Shown: positions 54,700-61,680, numbered from the stretch's first letter. The stretch is DNA of 64,000 bases from Thermoplasmatota archaeon (GCA_025457885.1 JALOTN010000007.1:1726-65725); one strand, 5' to 3'. Program-made: numbers and translations. Notes: generated by a model from the letters alone, not told the origin.

Positions 54700-56301
54700 A
54701 TGATGTGGGGTCCTATGAAGAAGATACTCGTCGTATGTCTTATCCAGATGTTGATAGCAACTCCTGTCTTCGCACTCAACAATCCGTCACCGATGGCACA
54801 AACAGGACGAACAAGTGAACAAGCATCCGTGATTGACTGGTGGCCGATGTTCTGCCACGATGAGGCACTGACGGCAAACACCAGTGCACCATCCCCAGAC
54901 ATTTCACAAATACTCTGGAGCCATACCGTCGAAGACTGGATCGAATCCTCCCCGTCCATCGTCGACGGGAAGGTCTACATCGCGACCTGCAACTGGTGGA
55001 AAGGCCGTATCCACTGTCTTGATTTATACAATGGTTCTTTCCTCTGGAACTACACGGTTAACGATCAACTGTACTCCTCCCCAGCGATCGTCGACGGGAA
55101 AGTCTACATCGCCTCATTAAACGGAAGAATCATCTGTGTCAATGCATCCTCCGGGCAACAGCTCTATAACGTGCTGCTAAACACCGATATCCTAACGCAA
55201 GCCTCACCCGTGGTGAACGACGGAAAAATCTACCTGAGCTGCACCAATGAATACCCCGCGGAGAACCGCAGCAAACTTTACTGCCTGAATGCAGAGAACG
55301 GATCAATCGTCTGGTTCAACGATACCAAGAACGCCCGGGATATCTCCCCTGCGGTCGTCAACGGCAACGTCTATGGTGCGGGAGCCGGCAACATCCTGAC
55401 CTGTTTTAATGCCCTGACCGGGGAGATGGTCTGGCAATCCACAGAACAGATCACCACAGGTCATCCAGTGGTCTCTGGAGATAACATCTATGGGACTTCC
55501 GATTCCATGATCTACTGCGTCCAACAAGGGGTGACCCACTGGGAGTTCCCCCTCAAATCAGGGTTCCTGGTGGCATCCACGCTTGCTCTTGGAAACGGAA
55601 GAATAATCATTGGCGCGCTCAACCCGTACGCCTCTATACCCGGGATGATCCACTGCATCAACAGTGAGACCGGGGTTGAATACTGGAATTATTCATCGGT
55701 CAACAACGGGGAATATAACGCAAAACCCACGATTGCTCAGAACCGACTCTTCATCGTCGAGGACATCGGCGTCGGACTAGACCGGAATGCGCGTCTGTGC
55801 GGTCATGACCTCTCCACCGGGGAGCTCCTCGCCAATCAGTATGTGAACACAGATACGATGAACTACGTCTATGGGACGCCATCCATGGCTGATGGCTTAG
55901 TTGTCATCGGCTCCGCGGAAGGAGATGGCTCATCCTCCTGGGGAGGGATCTACTGTTATGGTCAGATGACCGTCCATCAACCGGTTCTTTCCATCACAAA
56001 CATCTCTGGTGGGAAAGGATTGACCATGACAATTCAGAACACCGGGGATGCGAACGCGACCGGGATCATCGGAGACCTCCTCATCACAGGTGGTTTGTTC
56101 ATCCGTCAGGGAACCTATGTGTTCCCAGACTCTATTCCCGCGGGTGAAACAGCCACCGTCACCGTCCCACTCTTCGGCGTTGGATTTGGATTCTTAAAAG
56201 CTATCCCGCAAATCACTGTCAATGTCGAATGCACAGAACAGTCATCTGCTACTGCAGTCCAGCAATTTAAAATATTTTTATCGCAGGTGAAAATCATCTA
56301 G
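54700..56301 (+). CDS. Secreted PQQ-like beta-propeller repeat protein with C-terminal beta-sandwich module
   Basis: Has a signal peptide. Repeats are of the type SSPSIVDGKVYIA...HCLDLYNGSFLW. Related to 24749-26464. Confidence 0.6.
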   Translation: MMWGPMKKILVVCLIQMLIATPVFALNNPSPMAQTGRTSEQASVIDWWPMFCHDEALTANTSAPSPDISQILWSHTVEDWIESSPSIVDGKVYIATCNWWKGRIHCLDLYNGSFLWNYTVNDQLYSSPAIVDGKVYIASLNGRIICVNASSGQQLYNVLLNTDILTQASPVVNDGKIYLSCTNEYPAENRSKLYCLNAENGSIVWFNDTKNARDISPAVVNGNVYGAGAGNILTCFNALTGEMVWQSTEQITTGHPVVSGDNIYGTSDSMIYCVQQGVTHWEFPLKSGFLVASTLALGNGRIIIGALNPYASIPGMIHCINSETGVEYWNYSSVNNGEYNAKPTIAQNRLFIVEDIGVGLDRNARLCGHDLSTGELLANQYVNTDTMNYVYGTPSMADGLVVIGSAEGDGSSSWGGIYCYGQMTVHQPVLSITNISGGKGLTMTIQNTGDANATGIIGDLLITGGLFIRQGTYVFPDSIPAGETATVTVPLFGVGFGFLKAIPQITVNVECTEQSSATAVQQFKIFLSQVKII

Positions 56302-56512
56302 GACGTGTGTTGTTTTTCCGCGGTTCATTTGCATTATTTAAAAGGATTTGGGGGCTGAAGGTCCCATAACGACTTCCTCCATGATAGAAAGGTGGTCCCA
56401 ACCAAAGAGTTGGATGTTCATTTGAGATGAGTTCTTGTTGAAGTAGTAAATCGATGTCCATTTTAGTTAGTCCGAGTCGTTGACCAAGTATGTAAAACGT
56501 TTCCGTTTGCAT
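56294..56512 (-). CDS. Candidate precursor peptide A2 of the rSAM/SPASM operon (72 aa, Cys-free, GPPFYHGGSRYGT core)
   Basis: Homologous to ORF A1 (61428-61643): LGxxLGL, then exactly 23 residues, then GPP-hydrophobic-Y-x-G..YGT. Last gene of the co-directional operon. Confidence 0.5.
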   Translation of the reverse strand: MQTETFYILGQRLGLTKMDIDLLLQQELISNEHPTLWLGPPFYHGGSRYGTFSPQILLNNANEPRKNNTRPR

Positions 56513-56535
56513 TGAAAAAACCTATTGTTATTAAC

Positions 56536-56543
56536 AATTTAAA
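56536..56543 (-). promoter_or_regulatory. TATA-box-like element (TTTAAATT on - strand) about 28 nt upstream of the A2 start, adjacent to palindrome ATTGTTA-T-TAACAAT (56524-56538)
   Basis: Read directly in the 64-nt spacer between the ligase stop (56577) and the A2 ATG (56512). Confidence 0.3.
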
Positions 56544-56576
56544 GGTAACCCCTGTTCCATTCCGTTCAGTAATCAT

Positions 56577-60316: not shown

Positions 60317-61369
60317 TTATCCGGGCTGCTTGTCTTGGTATTGGAGTTCAATGGTGTGGAAGCAGTAGGGGTCGTTGTGTGGTTTGGTGGTAAATGATGT
60401 TGACATCCCTAAACATCCGCCTTTGCAGGTTCTGCCAAATTCGCATTCTTTGCAATGGTCGCCAGTGTCTTTTGGTGTGAATTTTCTGTTGTACGCGAAT
60501 GCTTCCGGGTCGTTCCAGATGTCGATAAGACGTTTTTTGCGTATGTTTCCTTCGATGTATGTTGCAGGGGTTGAGAGGCATCCGATGATATCTCCGTTAC
60601 TTTTGATGCTGAGTATCGACAGTCCAGCTTGGCATCCTGTCCAGTGGGGGGAAAGTCCTAGGTAGGGTATGTGTTGAGAGTGGTATCCGAAGCAGTGGGC
60701 GCCAATCAACGGGAGTTCTTTTGGTGTATAACGGTTCCGTAGTGCTGCAATGAAGAGGCCGACGGTGTAGAACTCTTCCTTTGATAGCGCAAATTTTTTT
60801 TTGAATCTGCCTTCTGGTGCAGCGGTTTGTATCTGCCAGGCGATGTGTTTGTTGAGGAGGAGATTTTTTATGTCTGGTAACTCTGTAAAATTCAGTTTAT
60901 TGACCGTGGTTATTACGGTTGTTGGCAATCCAGCTGTTGTGAGGTGTTTGATGAATTTCAGGACGTTTTGATACGACCCTTTCATGCCTCGTATATGATC
61001 ATGTGTGGTAGGAGTTGCTCCGTCAAGGCTTGTAGAAACTGCATAGGGTTCCAGGGCGATGAGTTTTTTTAGGGTATCTGAGGTGATTTGGTATCCGTTG
61101 GATATGAAGAGTAGTTTCATACCAGCATCTTTTGTTGCTTTTGCTATCTGGTACCATTCTTTTTTTAAAAATGGTTCACCACCCATGAGGCAGACTTGGT
61201 CGGTGTGTATGCATGCAAGATCGTTGATGATGTTTCGTGACTCTTGTAAGGTCAGTTCGTGAGGTCGTGGTATGCCTGCTAATGAGCCGCAATGGATGCA
61301 ATGGAGGTTGCATTGGAGGGTGAGTTCCCATACGACTTGTTTCGGGATGTAATGGGGTTCTGGTGTCAT
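60317..61369 (-). CDS. Radical SAM / SPASM-domain enzyme 1
   Basis: Has VWELTLQCNLHCIHCGS (CX3CX2C), GGEPF, and SPASM Cys clusters GCQAG, GCLS, CKECEFGRTCKGGC and PHNDPYCF. Start placed at MTPEPHY; the listed GTG extension overlaps ORF A1. Confidence 0.8.
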   Translation of the reverse strand: MTPEPHYIPKQVVWELTLQCNLHCIHCGSLAGIPRPHELTLQESRNIINDLACIHTDQVCLMGGEPFLKKEWYQIAKATKDAGMKLLFISNGYQITSDTLKKLIALEPYAVSTSLDGATPTTHDHIRGMKGSYQNVLKFIKHLTTAGLPTTVITTVNKLNFTELPDIKNLLLNKHIAWQIQTAAPEGRFKKKFALSKEEFYTVGLFIAALRNRYTPKELPLIGAHCFGYHSQHIPYLGLSPHWTGCQAGLSILSIKSNGDIIGCLSTPATYIEGNIRKKRLIDIWNDPEAFAYNRKFTPKDTGDHCKECEFGRTCKGGCLGMSTSFTTKPHNDPYCFHTIELQYQDKQPG

Positions 61370-61427
61370 TGTACCACCGAGTTTCTTGAATATGTATGTG
61401 GATTTGTTATTGGATATGGTCTGTTTT

Positions 61428-61643
61428 TTATTCTTTTTTTGTTTGTTGTTTAGGGCTGGTGAAGTCGTTGATGCTGATGGTTCCGTAGTAGCTCCCACTG
61501 TACATGGGGGGGCCTTGGGAGAATGACATTTGTTCGGTGGTGTGTTGGGTGTTATTGAGGATATTTCGTATGTGTTTGGTGTCGAGTCCGAGTTGTTTTC
61601 CGAGGCGTTTTATTTTCGGATTCATGGTCTTTATTTGTTTCAT
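61428..61643 (-). CDS. Candidate precursor peptide A1 of the rSAM/SPASM operon (Cys-free, GPPMYSGSYYGT core)
   Basis: First gene of the operon. Homologous to A2 (56294-56512). Start is ambiguous (61670, 61643 or 61625); 61643 fits a TATA-like box at 61672-61680. Confidence 0.5.
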   Translation of the reverse strand: MKQIKTMNPKIKRLGKQLGLDTKHIRNILNNTQHTTEQMSFSQGPPMYSGSYYGTISINDFTSPKQQTKKE

Positions 61644-61671
61644 GATAACATGGCACACGTATACAATCATA

Positions 61672-61680
61672 ATTTAAATA
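61672..61680 (-). promoter_or_regulatory. TATA-box-like element (ATTTAAATA) upstream of the rSAM/SPASM operon
   Basis: A/T palindromic box about 30 nt upstream of the Met codon at 61643. Same box type as upstream of several other genes in the window. Confidence 0.35.

What the first reader, a model, noticed from the sequence alone, without database searches (positions are those of the whole stretch)
56294..61680. Archaeal RiPP-like operon: twin radical SAM/SPASM enzymes + methyltransferase-TPR + F390-synthetase-like ligase, bracketed by two homologous small ORFs
Six co-directional minus-strand ORFs are packed with 4-10 nt overlaps or gaps of about 65 nt or less. The order is:
- small ORF A1 (61428-61643/61670)
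- rSAM/SPASM 1 (60317-61369)
- rSAM/SPASM 2 (59257-60303; GGTGA box before the ATG, 14 nt after the previous stop)
- class I SAM methyltransferase fused to a helical/TPR region (57959-59266)
- PaaK/coenzyme-F390-synthetase-like adenylating enzyme (56577-57962)
- small ORF A2 (56294-56512)
The two rSAMs are clear paralogs. They share colinear blocks VWELTL.CNL.CIHCGS, LDGATP..HD.IRG, YIEGNIRK, DIWNDP and PHNDPYCF, and each has a CX3CX2C site plus a Cys-rich SPASM tail (CKECEFGRTCKGGC / CKTCTHRPSCGGGC). SPASM rSAMs next to small conserved ORFs are the hallmark of peptide maturation. Here the candidate substrates contain no cysteine, so the sactipeptide/ranthipeptide thioether chemistry is excluded. 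No YcaO, lanthionine enzyme, protease or exporter is in the operon. I cannot map this enzyme set plus core motif onto a named RiPP class, which makes it the best candidate in the window for an undescribed system.
Basis: partly seen in the sequence, partly recalled or inferred. Interest (0 to 1): 0.88.

Follow-up and report, generated by a model that had tools for sequence, protein, structure and literature searches.

The report
Archaeal tyramine-splicing (spliceotide-like) peptide operon
This archaeal gene cluster is real and most likely makes small peptides whose backbone is re-cut at a Tyr-Gly site to create a protease-blocking keto-amide, so it is an unusual version of the known 'spliceotide' peptide class and not a wholly new system.

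Summary
The six minus-strand genes sit exactly as described: precursor A1, two paralogous radical SAM/SPASM enzymes, a methyltransferase-TPR protein, a PaaK-like ligase and precursor A2.

The operon recurs in other Thermoplasmata genomes. A reduced form (one rSAM, a methyltransferase and a precursor) occurs in Asgard archaea, DPANN, Elusimicrobia, Chloroflexi and Myxococcota.

All precursors share:
- an N-terminal leader motif, LGxxLGL
- a core with an invariant Tyr, followed by Gly in 70% of cases (A1: Y-Y-G; A2: R-Y-G)

The best family matches for both rSAMs are TIGR03913 and TIGR04103. They are 35% identical over their full length to a Nostoc TIGR04103 enzyme that sits next to a Nif11 precursor with an LYG core. 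[quoted passage not shown]

Heme, PQQ, mycofactocin, sactipeptide and cyclopropyl-synthase assignments fail.

So the RiPP reading is right, but "no named class" is not. This is most likely a spliceotide-type pathway. The variant features are a near-obligate methyltransferase partner, twin spliceases, a ligase and an archaeal host. The chemistry is inferred, not shown. The functions of the methyltransferase and the ligase are unknown.

The parts
61428..61643 (-). Precursor A1 (71 aa; an alternative upstream ATG at 61670 gives 80 aa). It has a leader with LGKQLGL (residues 14-20) and a core G44-F61, GPPMYSGSYYGTISINDF.
   Evidence: The precursor HMM scores E 2.6e-32. Homologues lie beside rSAM pairs in L001-L004.
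61482..61490 (-). Predicted splice site in A1: Tyr52-Tyr53-Gly54 (the X-Y-G motif). Y53, G54 and T55 are invariant in alignment A3.
   Evidence: The XYG rule comes from PMC11414181 and PMC11626197. The modification itself is inferred.
60317..61369 (-). rSAM/SPASM enzyme 1 (350 aa): CX3CX2C (CNLHCIHC), a SPASM Cys tail, and no N-terminal RRE domain.
   Evidence: TIGR04103 218.5 bits, TIGR03913 194.7 bits. It is 35% identical over residues 12-338 to the Nostoc TIGR04103 protein.
59257..60303 (-). rSAM/SPASM enzyme 2 (348 aa), a paralogue of enzyme 1 (46% identity).
   Evidence: The AF2 model has pLDDT 91.8. Its fold is nearest PqqE, SkfB and SuiB. In the NJ tree the two copies form sister clades restricted to Thermoplasmata.
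57959..59266 (-). Class I SAM methyltransferase domain (about residues 1-155), then an all-helical middle region, then C-terminal TPR repeats (about 294-420). It is translationally coupled to rSAM2.
   Evidence: Motif residues G6 C7 G8, D19, D27, E52 H53, W104 and H115 are invariant in 49 homologues. Homologues lie beside the rSAM in 46 of 80 loci.
56577..57962 (-). PaaK/F390-synthetase-like adenylate-forming ligase (461 aa; TSGTTGR P-loop).
   Evidence: It is found only in the twin-rSAM Thermoplasmata loci (L001, L002, L004, L007, L013).
56294..56512 (-). Precursor A2 (72 aa): leader LGQRLGL (residues 9-15), core GPPFYHGGSRYGTFS.
   Evidence: HMM E 3.2e-23. An orthologous 'RYGT' precursor follows the ligase in L002.
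56363..56371 (-). Predicted splice site in A2: Arg48-Tyr49-Gly50.
   Evidence: R/K is the commonest residue before the invariant Tyr (34 of 69 precursors). The modification is inferred.
61671..61678 (-). TTTAAATT, a candidate archaeal TATA box 28-35 nt upstream of the A1 ATG at 61643.
   Evidence: There are only 11 copies in 64 kb on both strands. This is an inference from position only.
56536..56543 (-). TTTAAATT, a candidate TATA box 24-31 nt upstream of the A2 ATG at 56512. It would give A2 its own promoter.
   Evidence: This is an inference from position only.

Best explanation
This is a spliceotide-type RiPP operon of a Thermoplasmata archaeon. The proposed steps, with their status, are:

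1. **Precursors (shown).** A1 and A2 are precursors of about 70 aa, each probably with its own promoter.
2. **Leader docking (inferred).** Their N-terminal leader carries a conserved LGxxLGLxxxx(I/V) segment. By analogy with the leader helix of binary (type II) spliceases, it docks on the rSAM enzyme.
3. **Splicing (inferred from homology and motif).** rSAM1 and/or rSAM2 cleave SAM reductively at the CX3CX2C cluster. They use the 5'-deoxyadenosyl radical to excise a tyramine equivalent (C8H9NO, -135.07 Da) from the invariant Tyr of the X-Tyr-Gly site. That site is Y52-Y53-G54 in A1 and R48-Y49-G50 in A2. [quoted passage not shown]
4. **Methylation (target unknown).** The class I methyltransferase domain, a near-universal partner of this rSAM clade, adds a methyl group at an unidentified position.
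5. **Ligation (substrate unknown).** The PaaK-like ligase, found only in the twin-rSAM Thermoplasmata subclade, adenylates a carboxylate. This could be the peptide C-terminus, an Asp side chain or a small acid.
6. **Product (inferred).** The product is most likely a keto-amide protease inhibitor whose P1-like residue is set by X.
For: 1. **Family scores.** The top NCBIfam hits for both rSAMs are TIGR03913 (228 and 195 bits) and TIGR04103 (222 and 218 bits), aligned end to end. For rSAM2 the next family is AhbD at 149 bits; for rSAM1 it is TIGR04133 at 152.5 bits.
2. **Direct comparison.** Both window rSAMs are 35% identical over about 330 aa to a Nostoc TIGR04103 enzyme. Its neighbours are a Nif11 precursor ending ...AGGRGSIALYGLPPELF and a 71-aa ORF. 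This is the published A/X/Y spliceotide layout. The LYGLP core matches the PlpA2 splice tag PIRPLYGLPI (PMC10533398).
3. **Known chemistry.** PlpX-type SPASM rSAMs excise tyramine at XYG (PMC11002830, PMC11414181, PMC11626197).
4. **Core motif.** Across 69 precursors from 42 loci, the one invariant core residue is Tyr. It is followed by Gly in 48 of 69, against a 6% background. In 145 short representatives, 123 carry xYG[TS].
5. **Outgroups.** Outgroup rSAMs also sit beside YG peptides: L075/L082 GDL peptides with P-Y-G or L-Y-G, L071 with seven YG repeats, and L045 with LLYGIIEP.
6. **Protease-inhibitor theme.** Syntrophales and Nitrospirae precursors fuse a Kunitz/BPTI domain (Pfam E 1e-13) to the SKYGGVSIRDF tail. 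X is Arg or Lys in 49% of cores.
7. **No RRE.** There is no RRE domain or Y protein, but the leader motif is conserved even in loci lacking the MT. This is consistent with binary spliceases, where a leader helix activates the enzyme (PMC11414181).
8. **Fold.** The fold is that of a peptide-modifying SPASM enzyme: PqqE, SkfB, SuiB.
Against: - No biochemical data exist for this clade.
- The scores are far below the curated cut-offs of TIGR04103 (725) and TIGR03913 (592), so the enzymes form a separate clade at 35-40% identity.
- About 30% of cores lack Gly after the Tyr: Elusimicrobia have RYY, KYF or RYH; some Thorarchaeota have YA; distant members have YN or YD. This departs from the XYG rule.
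- In the spliceotide papers I could read, I found no mention of an obligate class I methyltransferase partner. That leaves room for different or additional chemistry.
- A second conserved Tyr (GPPxY) and the twin rSAMs are not explained by a single splice.
- The equation of PlpX's InterPro family (IPR026482) with TIGR04103 rests on matching gene architecture and naming, not on a direct sequence comparison with PlpX.
Confidence: 0.55

Rival explanations
1. The MT-associated rSAM clade carries out a different Tyr-directed radical reaction instead of tyramine excision. It could be a C-C or C-O crosslink from the invariant Tyr to a neighbouring residue (cyclophane- or ether-type), or a Tyr side-chain modification that the methyltransferase then caps. 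That would make it an undescribed RiPP class.
For: - The clade is distinct from the curated splicease families.
- Gly after Tyr is dispensable in whole subclades.
- The MT domain is a near-universal partner, present in 46 of 80 loci and in all but one non-truncated subclade.
- The twin rSAMs match two conserved Tyr residues in the Thermoplasmata cores.
- The closest solved relatives, PqqE and SuiB, are C-C crosslinking enzymes.
Against: - The nearest sequence families are the YG-peptide-associated ones, with a gap of about 66-75 bits to every other SPASM family.
- Triceptide (3-CyFE) models are not among the top 25 hits.
- A three-residue Tyr-to-C-beta crosslink is impossible in the YGG cores of L018 and L024.
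- The strong Y-G enrichment is the hallmark used to find spliceases (PMC10849128).
Confidence: 0.3
2. The rSAM pair belongs to a cofactor pathway, either alternative heme or heme d1 (AhbC/AhbD/NirJ) or a peptide-derived redox cofactor such as PQQ or mycofactocin. The small ORFs would then be irrelevant or would be cofactor precursors.
For: AhbD, NirJ, MftC and PqqE models give significant partial hits. PqqE is the best structural match. PQQ and mycofactocin both derive from a conserved Tyr.
Against: - All scores are far below the cut-offs: AhbD 149 vs 500, AhbC 131 vs 650, NirJ 135 vs 515, MftC 135 vs 265, PqqE 84 vs 381.
- No heme, PQQ or Mft genes are in the neighbourhood.
- The small ORFs are conserved next to homologues in 42 loci.
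- In bacteria and Asgard archaea the precursors carry lipoprotein signals, Sec signals or TM helices, and even a Kunitz domain. They are exported proteins, not cofactor precursors.
Confidence: 0.03
3. The splicease assignment is right, but the MT-TPR protein is mainly a non-catalytic partner that binds the leader or activates the enzyme. It would be a functional replacement of the Y/RRE protein of type I spliceases, and no methylation would occur.
For: The rSAMs have no RRE and no Y protein is encoded. TPR domains bind peptides. The MT gene is translationally coupled to rSAM2. Type I spliceases need a separate activator (PMC11414181).
Against: - The part conserved in all clades is the MT domain. 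The Elusimicrobia partners match only HMM positions 1-200, so the TPR part is not conserved.
- The SAM-binding and putative catalytic residues are invariant in 49 homologues.
- The leader motif persists in loci that lack the MT altogether. So the leader more likely binds the rSAM.
Confidence: 0.12

Closest known systems
Type I spliceotides (PlpA/PlpX/PlpY of Pleurocapsa; NCBIfam TIGR04103 'nif11-class peptide radical SAM maturase 3')
   Same: - SPASM rSAM of the same subfamily, 35% identical end to end, sharing the blocks VWE(L/I)TL.CNL.C.HCGS, WQIQ, GNIR and N(D/N)PYC.
- The precursor core has an essential Tyr followed by Gly.
- Multiple precursor genes occur per locus.
   Different: - Scores are far below the family cut-off (222 vs 725).
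- The leader is a short LGxxLGL leader, not a Nif11/NHLP leader.
- There is no Y (RRE-like) protein.
- Extra genes are present: an MT-TPR protein, a PaaK-like ligase and a second rSAM paralogue.
- The host is an archaeon.
Type II (binary) spliceotides, RhaX/RhaA and RcsX/RasX of Rheinheimera
   Same: It is a two-component logic, with no Y protein and a conserved leader segment that could act as the activating helix. The expected products are keto-amide protease inhibitors (PMC11414181, PMC11626197).
   Different: No sequences were available for direct comparison. No methyltransferase or ligase partner is mentioned for these systems in the two papers I read. The helicity and binding of the leader in the present family are untested.
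TIGR03913 'GDL motif peptide-associated radical SAM/SPASM maturase' with DUF1843 peptides
   Same: It is the highest-scoring curated family for rSAM2 (228 bits). Its partner peptides also carry a (P/L)-Y-G site.
   Different: - The score is below the cut-off of 592.
- True members have an extension of about 130 aa at the C-terminus (L072 is 498 aa).
- In those peptides the YG lies near the N-terminus, followed by a GDL helix.
- No MT partner is present.
PqqE / SuiB / SkfB (structurally characterised peptide-modifying SPASM enzymes)
   Same: The overall fold and the three-cluster SPASM architecture match. PqqE also targets a conserved Tyr.
   Different: Identity is only 16-22%. Those enzymes use an RRE (PqqD or a fused domain). 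Their chemistry is crosslinking, not backbone excision.

Membership tests
Spliceotide pathway (rSAM splicease + XYG precursor) | rSAM enzyme with CX3CX2C and a SPASM domain | tested here: met
   Pfam gives Radical_SAM + SPASM for both enzymes. CNLHCIHC/CNLQCIHC and CX2CX5CX3C tails are present. The AF2 fold agrees.
Spliceotide pathway (rSAM splicease + XYG precursor) | Enzyme belongs to the PlpX-related rSAM subfamily | tested here: inconclusive
   TIGR04103 and TIGR03913 are the two best models, leading all others by about 66-75 bits, and identity to a Nostoc TIGR04103 protein is 35%. However, the scores are below the curated cut-offs. In the NJ tree the enzymes form a separate, MT-associated sister clade. 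No verified splicease sequence was available.
Spliceotide pathway (rSAM splicease + XYG precursor) | Precursor core carries conserved X-Tyr-Gly site(s) | tested here: met
   A1 has Y52-Y53-G54 and A2 has R48-Y49-G50. Tyr is invariant. Gly follows it in 48 of 69 family members, against a 6% background. 123 of 145 short representatives have xYG[TS].
Spliceotide pathway (rSAM splicease + XYG precursor) | [quoted passage not shown] | not testable with these tools
   This needs co-expression and HR-MS/MS.
Spliceotide pathway (rSAM splicease + XYG precursor) | Activator: a separate Y (RRE-like) protein (type I) or an activating leader helix (type II) | tested here: inconclusive
   There is no PqqD/RRE hit in any operon protein. 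The MT-TPR model is all-helical after residue 160. A conserved leader motif, LGxxLGL, exists and persists without the MT. Its helicity and binding were not tested.
TIGR03913 GDL-motif peptide maturase | Score at or above 591.75 bits, plus a DUF1843/GDL partner peptide | tested here: not met
   Scores are 228 and 195 bits. A1 and A2 have no Pfam hit and no GDL motif. True members (L072, 719 bits) differ.
AhbC/AhbD/NirJ (alternative heme / heme d1) | Equivalog score above the cut-off, in a heme-pathway gene context | tested here: not met
   The best scores are AhbD 149 vs 500, AhbC 131 vs 650 and NirJ 135 vs 515, and these are mostly N-terminal-half alignments. No heme genes are nearby.
PqqE / MftC | Equivalog score above the cut-off, with a PqqA/PqqD or MftA/MftB context | tested here: not met
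   PqqE scores 84 vs 381. MftC scores 135 vs 265. No partner genes are present.
Sactipeptide / ranthipeptide | Cys donor residues in the core | tested here: not met
   There is no Cys in the cores of A1 or A2.
Cyclopropylglycine synthases (TvgB/TigE) | Strictly conserved GYW motif ligating Aux I (PMC10878394) | tested here: not met
   Neither rSAM contains GYW: rSAM1 has FGYHS and rSAM2 has FGFYS. TigE ranks only 41st in the fold search.
Triceptides (3-residue cyclophane-forming enzymes) | XyeB/GrrM/Fxs-type rSAM, and an aromatic-X-X motif with a C-beta at position 3 | tested here: not met
   These models are not among the top 25 NCBIfam hits. Family members with Y-G-G cores have no C-beta at position 3.

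The most novel reading that the evidence does not exclude
The methyltransferase-associated clade is a separate two-enzyme system, spread across Thermoplasmata, Asgard archaea, DPANN, CPR, Elusimicrobia, Chloroflexi and Myxococcota. Its chemistry would go beyond known splicing, either as an obligatory methylation coupled to Tyr excision or as a different Tyr-directed radical reaction.

Its recognition leader would sit upstream of lipoprotein signals, Sec signals or TM segments. Signal-peptide cleavage would then remove the leader, and the modified tail would be displayed on exported proteins. The window's soluble peptides, twin rSAMs and ligase would be a derived, natural-product-like offshoot of that protein-modification system.
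Probability: 0.3. Interest if true: 0.8.

Novelty: new variant of a known kind. Interest (0 to 1): 0.6.

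Why it matters
- **Archaeal hosts.** If the splicing prediction holds, ribosomal beta-amino-acid (keto-amide) chemistry would extend into uncultured Thermoplasmata and Asgard archaea.
- **New partners.** It would add a conserved methyltransferase partner and, in Thermoplasmata, an adenylating enzyme. Neither role is mentioned in the spliceotide papers I could read.
- **New splice sites.** It would give a large natural set of splice sites, with X = Tyr, Phe, Arg, Lys, Leu, His or Trp. These are useful for protease-inhibitor discovery and for protein engineering.
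- **Export architecture.** The wider family shows an unusual layout: the recognition leader precedes a signal peptide, and the modified tail is fused to a Kunitz inhibitor. This points to a physiological role in protease control at the cell surface.
- **If the prediction fails.** The clade would then be an undescribed Tyr-directed rSAM/MT chemistry.

Tried and rejected
- **Precursor family scans.** Pfam and NCBIfam scans of A1, A2 and five diverse precursors found no family, apart from the Kunitz domain in the Syntrophus protein.
- **Word-indexed homologue search with A1.** It found only 5 proteins. The HMM route through neighbouring loci and the exhaustive profile search were needed.
- **MT domain.** The PDB sequence profile hit only TPR proteins. 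Foldseek gave only generic class I methyltransferases at E about 1e-5, with no functional clue.
- **Cyclopropyl synthase idea** (the GT(I/V)S core resembles TIGSVS). Rejected because there is no GYW motif (PMC10878394).
- **TIGR04133 'rSAM with lipoprotein' membership** for the Elusimicrobia relatives. Rejected, with scores of 140-164 vs a 425 cut-off.
- **Literature searches** for TIGRFAM accessions, archaeal or Asgard rSAM RiPPs and rSAM+MT+TPR. They found no description of this clade.
- **Scott et al. 2022** (Chem 8:2659, 939 predicted spliceases) is not held. I could not check whether this clade is already listed there.
- **Supplements** of three splicease papers held no enzyme sequences.
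- **Mobile-island idea.** Rejected because the TraB and SAH-hydrolase flank is syntenic in L002, and the TraB flank also in L001.

Full report
**1. Observation**

ORF listing confirms six co-directional minus-strand genes at the stated coordinates:
- A1, 61428-61643
- rSAM1, 60317-61369
- rSAM2, 59257-60303
- MT-TPR, 57959-59266
- ligase, 56577-57962
- A2, 56294-56512

The junctions are as described:
- A 58-nt gap lies between A1 and rSAM1.
- A 13-nt gap, containing GGGTGA, lies before the rSAM2 ATG.
- rSAM2 and the MT overlap by 10 nt.
- The MT and the ligase overlap by 4 nt, as ATGA.
- A 64-nt gap lies before A2.

Pfam gives Radical_SAM + SPASM twice, Methyltransf_11/23 + TPR, and AMP-binding. 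The two rSAMs are 46% identical (E 3e-115). A1 and A2 are 32% identical (E 1e-7) and share LGxxLGL and GPPxY...xYGT.

The A1 start is ambiguous, at 61643 or 61670. An octamer, TTTAAATT, occurs only 11 times in the window. It lies within about 24-35 nt upstream of both precursor ATGs on the correct strand. That suggests two archaeal TATA boxes, an inference from position only.

**2. Conservation elsewhere**

The rSAM2 homologue search returned hundreds of relatives, named where named at all from Thermoplasmata or Euryarchaeota MAGs. A scan of one genome per species returned 80 loci.

tblastn with the six window proteins shows the full operon (precursors, rSAM1, rSAM2, MT and ligase) in Thermoplasmata MAGs L001, L002, L004, L007 and L013, in varying gene order. 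L003 lacks only the ligase. In L002 a second Arg-type precursor follows the ligase, exactly as in the window.

The flanks are syntenic with the window: the TraB-like gene in L001 and L002, and SAH hydrolase in L002. So the operon is chromosomal and vertically inherited in this lineage.

Neighbour clustering found only three recurrent partners: the rSAM, the methyltransferase, and (in seven loci) the ligase. No protease, YcaO or transporter recurred.

A methyltransferase HMM finds a partner on the same strand in 46 of 80 loci plus the window. Inside the clade, the absences are truncated contigs, plus one subclade (L018, L023, L024, L026) that truly lacks it. Elusimicrobia partners match only the methyltransferase half of the model. 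So the catalytic domain is the conserved element, not the TPR.

**3. The precursors**

An HMM built from eight Thermoplasmata peptides was iterated on six-frame ORFs of all loci. It recovered 71 precursor-like ORFs in 42 sources (41 loci plus the window), nearly all adjacent to the rSAM and on the same strand. None matches any Pfam or NCBIfam model.

They share an N-terminal LGxxLGL(S/T/D)xxE(I/V) motif and a C-terminal core. By lineage:

| Lineage | Core / architecture |
|---|---|
| Thermoplasmata (twin rSAM) | GPPxYxGxXYGT(I/V)SIxDF; short and soluble |
| Thorarchaeota | TYxPGTXYG(S/T)IxPxDF; a TM helix between leader and core |
| Elusimicrobia | CGPYPGYPCGT(R/K)Y(Y/F)TVSxxDF; a lipoprotein signal with lipobox between leader and core |
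| Syntrophales / Nitrospirae | YPVSKYG(G/A)V(S/G)xRDF; a Sec signal plus a genuine Kunitz/BPTI domain (Pfam E 1e-13) |
| Myxococcota | PPYAPGTXYGLVxRxNL |

The single invariant core residue is a Tyr. In 69 scorable precursors it is followed by Gly in 48, against a background P(G|Y) of 0.063. The preceding residue X is R/K in 34, L/M in 14 and Y/F/W in 15.

An exhaustive profile search of 1.84 billion representatives found 186 clusters at E ≤ 1e-3. Among the 145 short sequences of the 150 best hits, 123 carry xYG[TS].

**4. What the rSAMs are**

NCBIfam scores:

| Family | rSAM2 (bits) | rSAM1 (bits) | Cut-off |
|---|---|---|---|
| TIGR03913 | 228 | 195 | 592 |
| TIGR04103 | 222 | 218 | 725 |
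| AhbD | 149 | 148 | 500 |
| MftC | 122 | 135 | 265 |
| PqqE | 84 | 80 | 381 |

The two top matches are full-length alignments, but both lie far below their cut-offs.

Relatives from Thorarchaeota, Elusimicrobia, Syntrophus and a distant Thermoplasmata member behave the same way. By contrast, an Acidobacteria outgroup (L072) is a true TIGR03913 member (719 bits) and also scores 465 bits on TIGR04103.

An NJ tree puts all MT-linked enzymes in one clade, apart from the Myxococcota pairs (L053, L059), which branch separately. The rSAM1 and rSAM2 lineages appear as sister groups confined to Thermoplasmata, so this is a lineage-specific duplication. YG-peptide-linked enzymes are the nearest outgroups.

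The PDB sequence profile and Foldseek on a confident AF2 model (pLDDT 91.8) give PqqE, SkfB, SuiB and anSME. This is the peptide-modifying SPASM fold. The enzymes start directly with the radical SAM core and have no RRE domain.

**5. Link to known chemistry**

A review of genome-mined enzymes states that PlpX excises tyramine from Xaa-Tyr-Gly motifs of Nif11/NHLP-type precursors, with the help of the small protein PlpY. PlpX is a SPASM rSAM of a formerly uncharacterised subclass. The backbone is rejoined as an alpha-keto amide (PMC11002830).

Later papers report:
- binary systems without a Y protein, in which a leader helix occupies the Y site and activates the enzyme (PMC11414181)
- near-quantitative splicing at MYG/LYG sites, with sub-micromolar to micromolar protease inhibition that depends on the keto-amide (PMC11626197)
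- 27 verified and 939 predicted systems (PMC10533398)

To tie the NCBIfam model to this chemistry, I located a Nostoc plasmid gene annotated 'nif11-class peptide radical SAM maturase 3'. It is flanked by a Nif11 precursor ending AGG|RGSIALYGLPPELF and by a 71-aa ORF. That is the A/X/Y layout. Its core nearly matches the published PlpA2 splice tag PIRPLYGLPI.

Both window rSAMs are 35% identical to this enzyme over residues 12-339.

TIGR03913 loci likewise carry DUF1843 'GDL' peptides with a P-Y-G or L-Y-G site. Another outgroup (L071) has a lipoprotein with seven YG repeats.

So the enzyme subfamily and the invariant Tyr-Gly of the precursors point the same way.

**6. Mechanistic reading**

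*Shown:* the gene set, its conservation, the precursor motif and the family relationships.

*Inferred:* the leader docks on the rSAM. One or both rSAMs excise a tyramine equivalent from Y53 of A1 and Y49 of A2. This gives a keto-amide derived from Tyr52 or Arg48. The products act as protease inhibitors.

Three observations fit the inhibitor idea: the high share of Arg/Lys at X, the Kunitz fusions, and the export signals in bacterial and Asgard members.

In those members the leader lies N-terminal to the signal peptide or lipobox. Signal-peptidase cleavage would therefore remove it, which would explain the absence of a dedicated protease and exporter. This too is an inference.

*Unknown:*
- **The methylation target.** The MT domain keeps its SAM-binding residues: G6 C7 G8, D19, D27 and E52-H53 are invariant in 49 sequences. 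Its AF2 model is confident (pLDDT 93.5), but it resembles only generic class I enzymes.
- **The ligase substrate.** It is PaaK-like by PDB and NCBIfam. A speculative alternative is activation of a 4-hydroxyphenylacetate-type by-product of the excised tyramine unit.
- **The reason for two rSAM paralogues.** They may serve two precursor classes (aromatic-X and Arg-X), which co-occur in the window, L002, L003 and L004. Or one may act on the second conserved Tyr of GPPxY.

**7. Caveats**

- The clade is below every curated cut-off.
- About 30% of cores lack Gly after Tyr.
- The spliceotide papers I could read mention no methyltransferase partner.
- I could not read Scott et al. 2022 to see whether this clade is among their predicted types.

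A different Tyr-directed reaction therefore remains a serious rival (about 0.3).

**8. Verdict**

The RiPP interpretation is right, but the system is not unclassifiable. It is best filed as a divergent, archaeal, methyltransferase- and ligase-equipped variant of the spliceotide kind. Its chemistry is still to be demonstrated.

Noticed in passing
window 61769-63470: tRNA-Arg(CCT) lies on the + strand, directly upstream of and divergent from the operon. It is followed by an AbiEi antitoxin (61966-62712) and an AbiEii toxin (62709-63470) in a segment of only 33% GC. This looks like an element integrated at the tRNA.
   Followed up: partly
window 53883-54632: A TraB/PrgY/GumN-family protein flanks the operon end in the window, L001 and L002. 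Members of this superfamily are thought to be proteases, so it is a candidate leader peptidase. It may equally be plain synteny.
   Followed up: partly
window 50041-53594: A second, canonical PaaK-type ligase (AMP-binding + AMP-binding_C_2), an ATP-grasp_5 protein and S-adenosylhomocysteine hydrolase lie just beyond the operon. SAH hydrolase is also adjacent in L002.
   Followed up: no
window 54700-56301: A secreted BamB/PQQ-like beta-propeller gene on the + strand overlaps the A2 stop by 8 nt. It is absent from this position in L001 and L002, so it was inserted between the operon and the TraB gene.
   Followed up: no
window 10001-12000: There is a pronounced GC trough (0.276, against 0.45-0.50 elsewhere).
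   Followed up: no
L018 9550-9993; L023, L024, L026: Syntrophales and Nitrospirae relatives encode secreted precursors with the layout leader motif + Sec signal + Kunitz/BPTI domain + SKYG(G/A)V tail. These loci lack the methyltransferase.
   Followed up: partly
L016, L017, L020, L021, L025, L027, L028, L037, L052: Elusimicrobia precursors place the rSAM leader motif in the n-region of a lipoprotein signal peptide (lipobox about 30 aa downstream). Their core has Tyr followed by Tyr, Phe or His in place of Gly, flanked by two Cys.
   Followed up: partly
L001 8230-8613; L007 5662-10999; P0216, P0217, P0219: Some Thermoplasmata ORFs fuse two or three complete leader+core units. L007 has one leader followed by three tandem cores, together with three rSAM paralogues.
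   Followed up: no
L001 1904-6498: Several additional, distantly related radical SAM ORFs lie just upstream of the operon in the UBA33 MAG. Some appear split.
   Followed up: no
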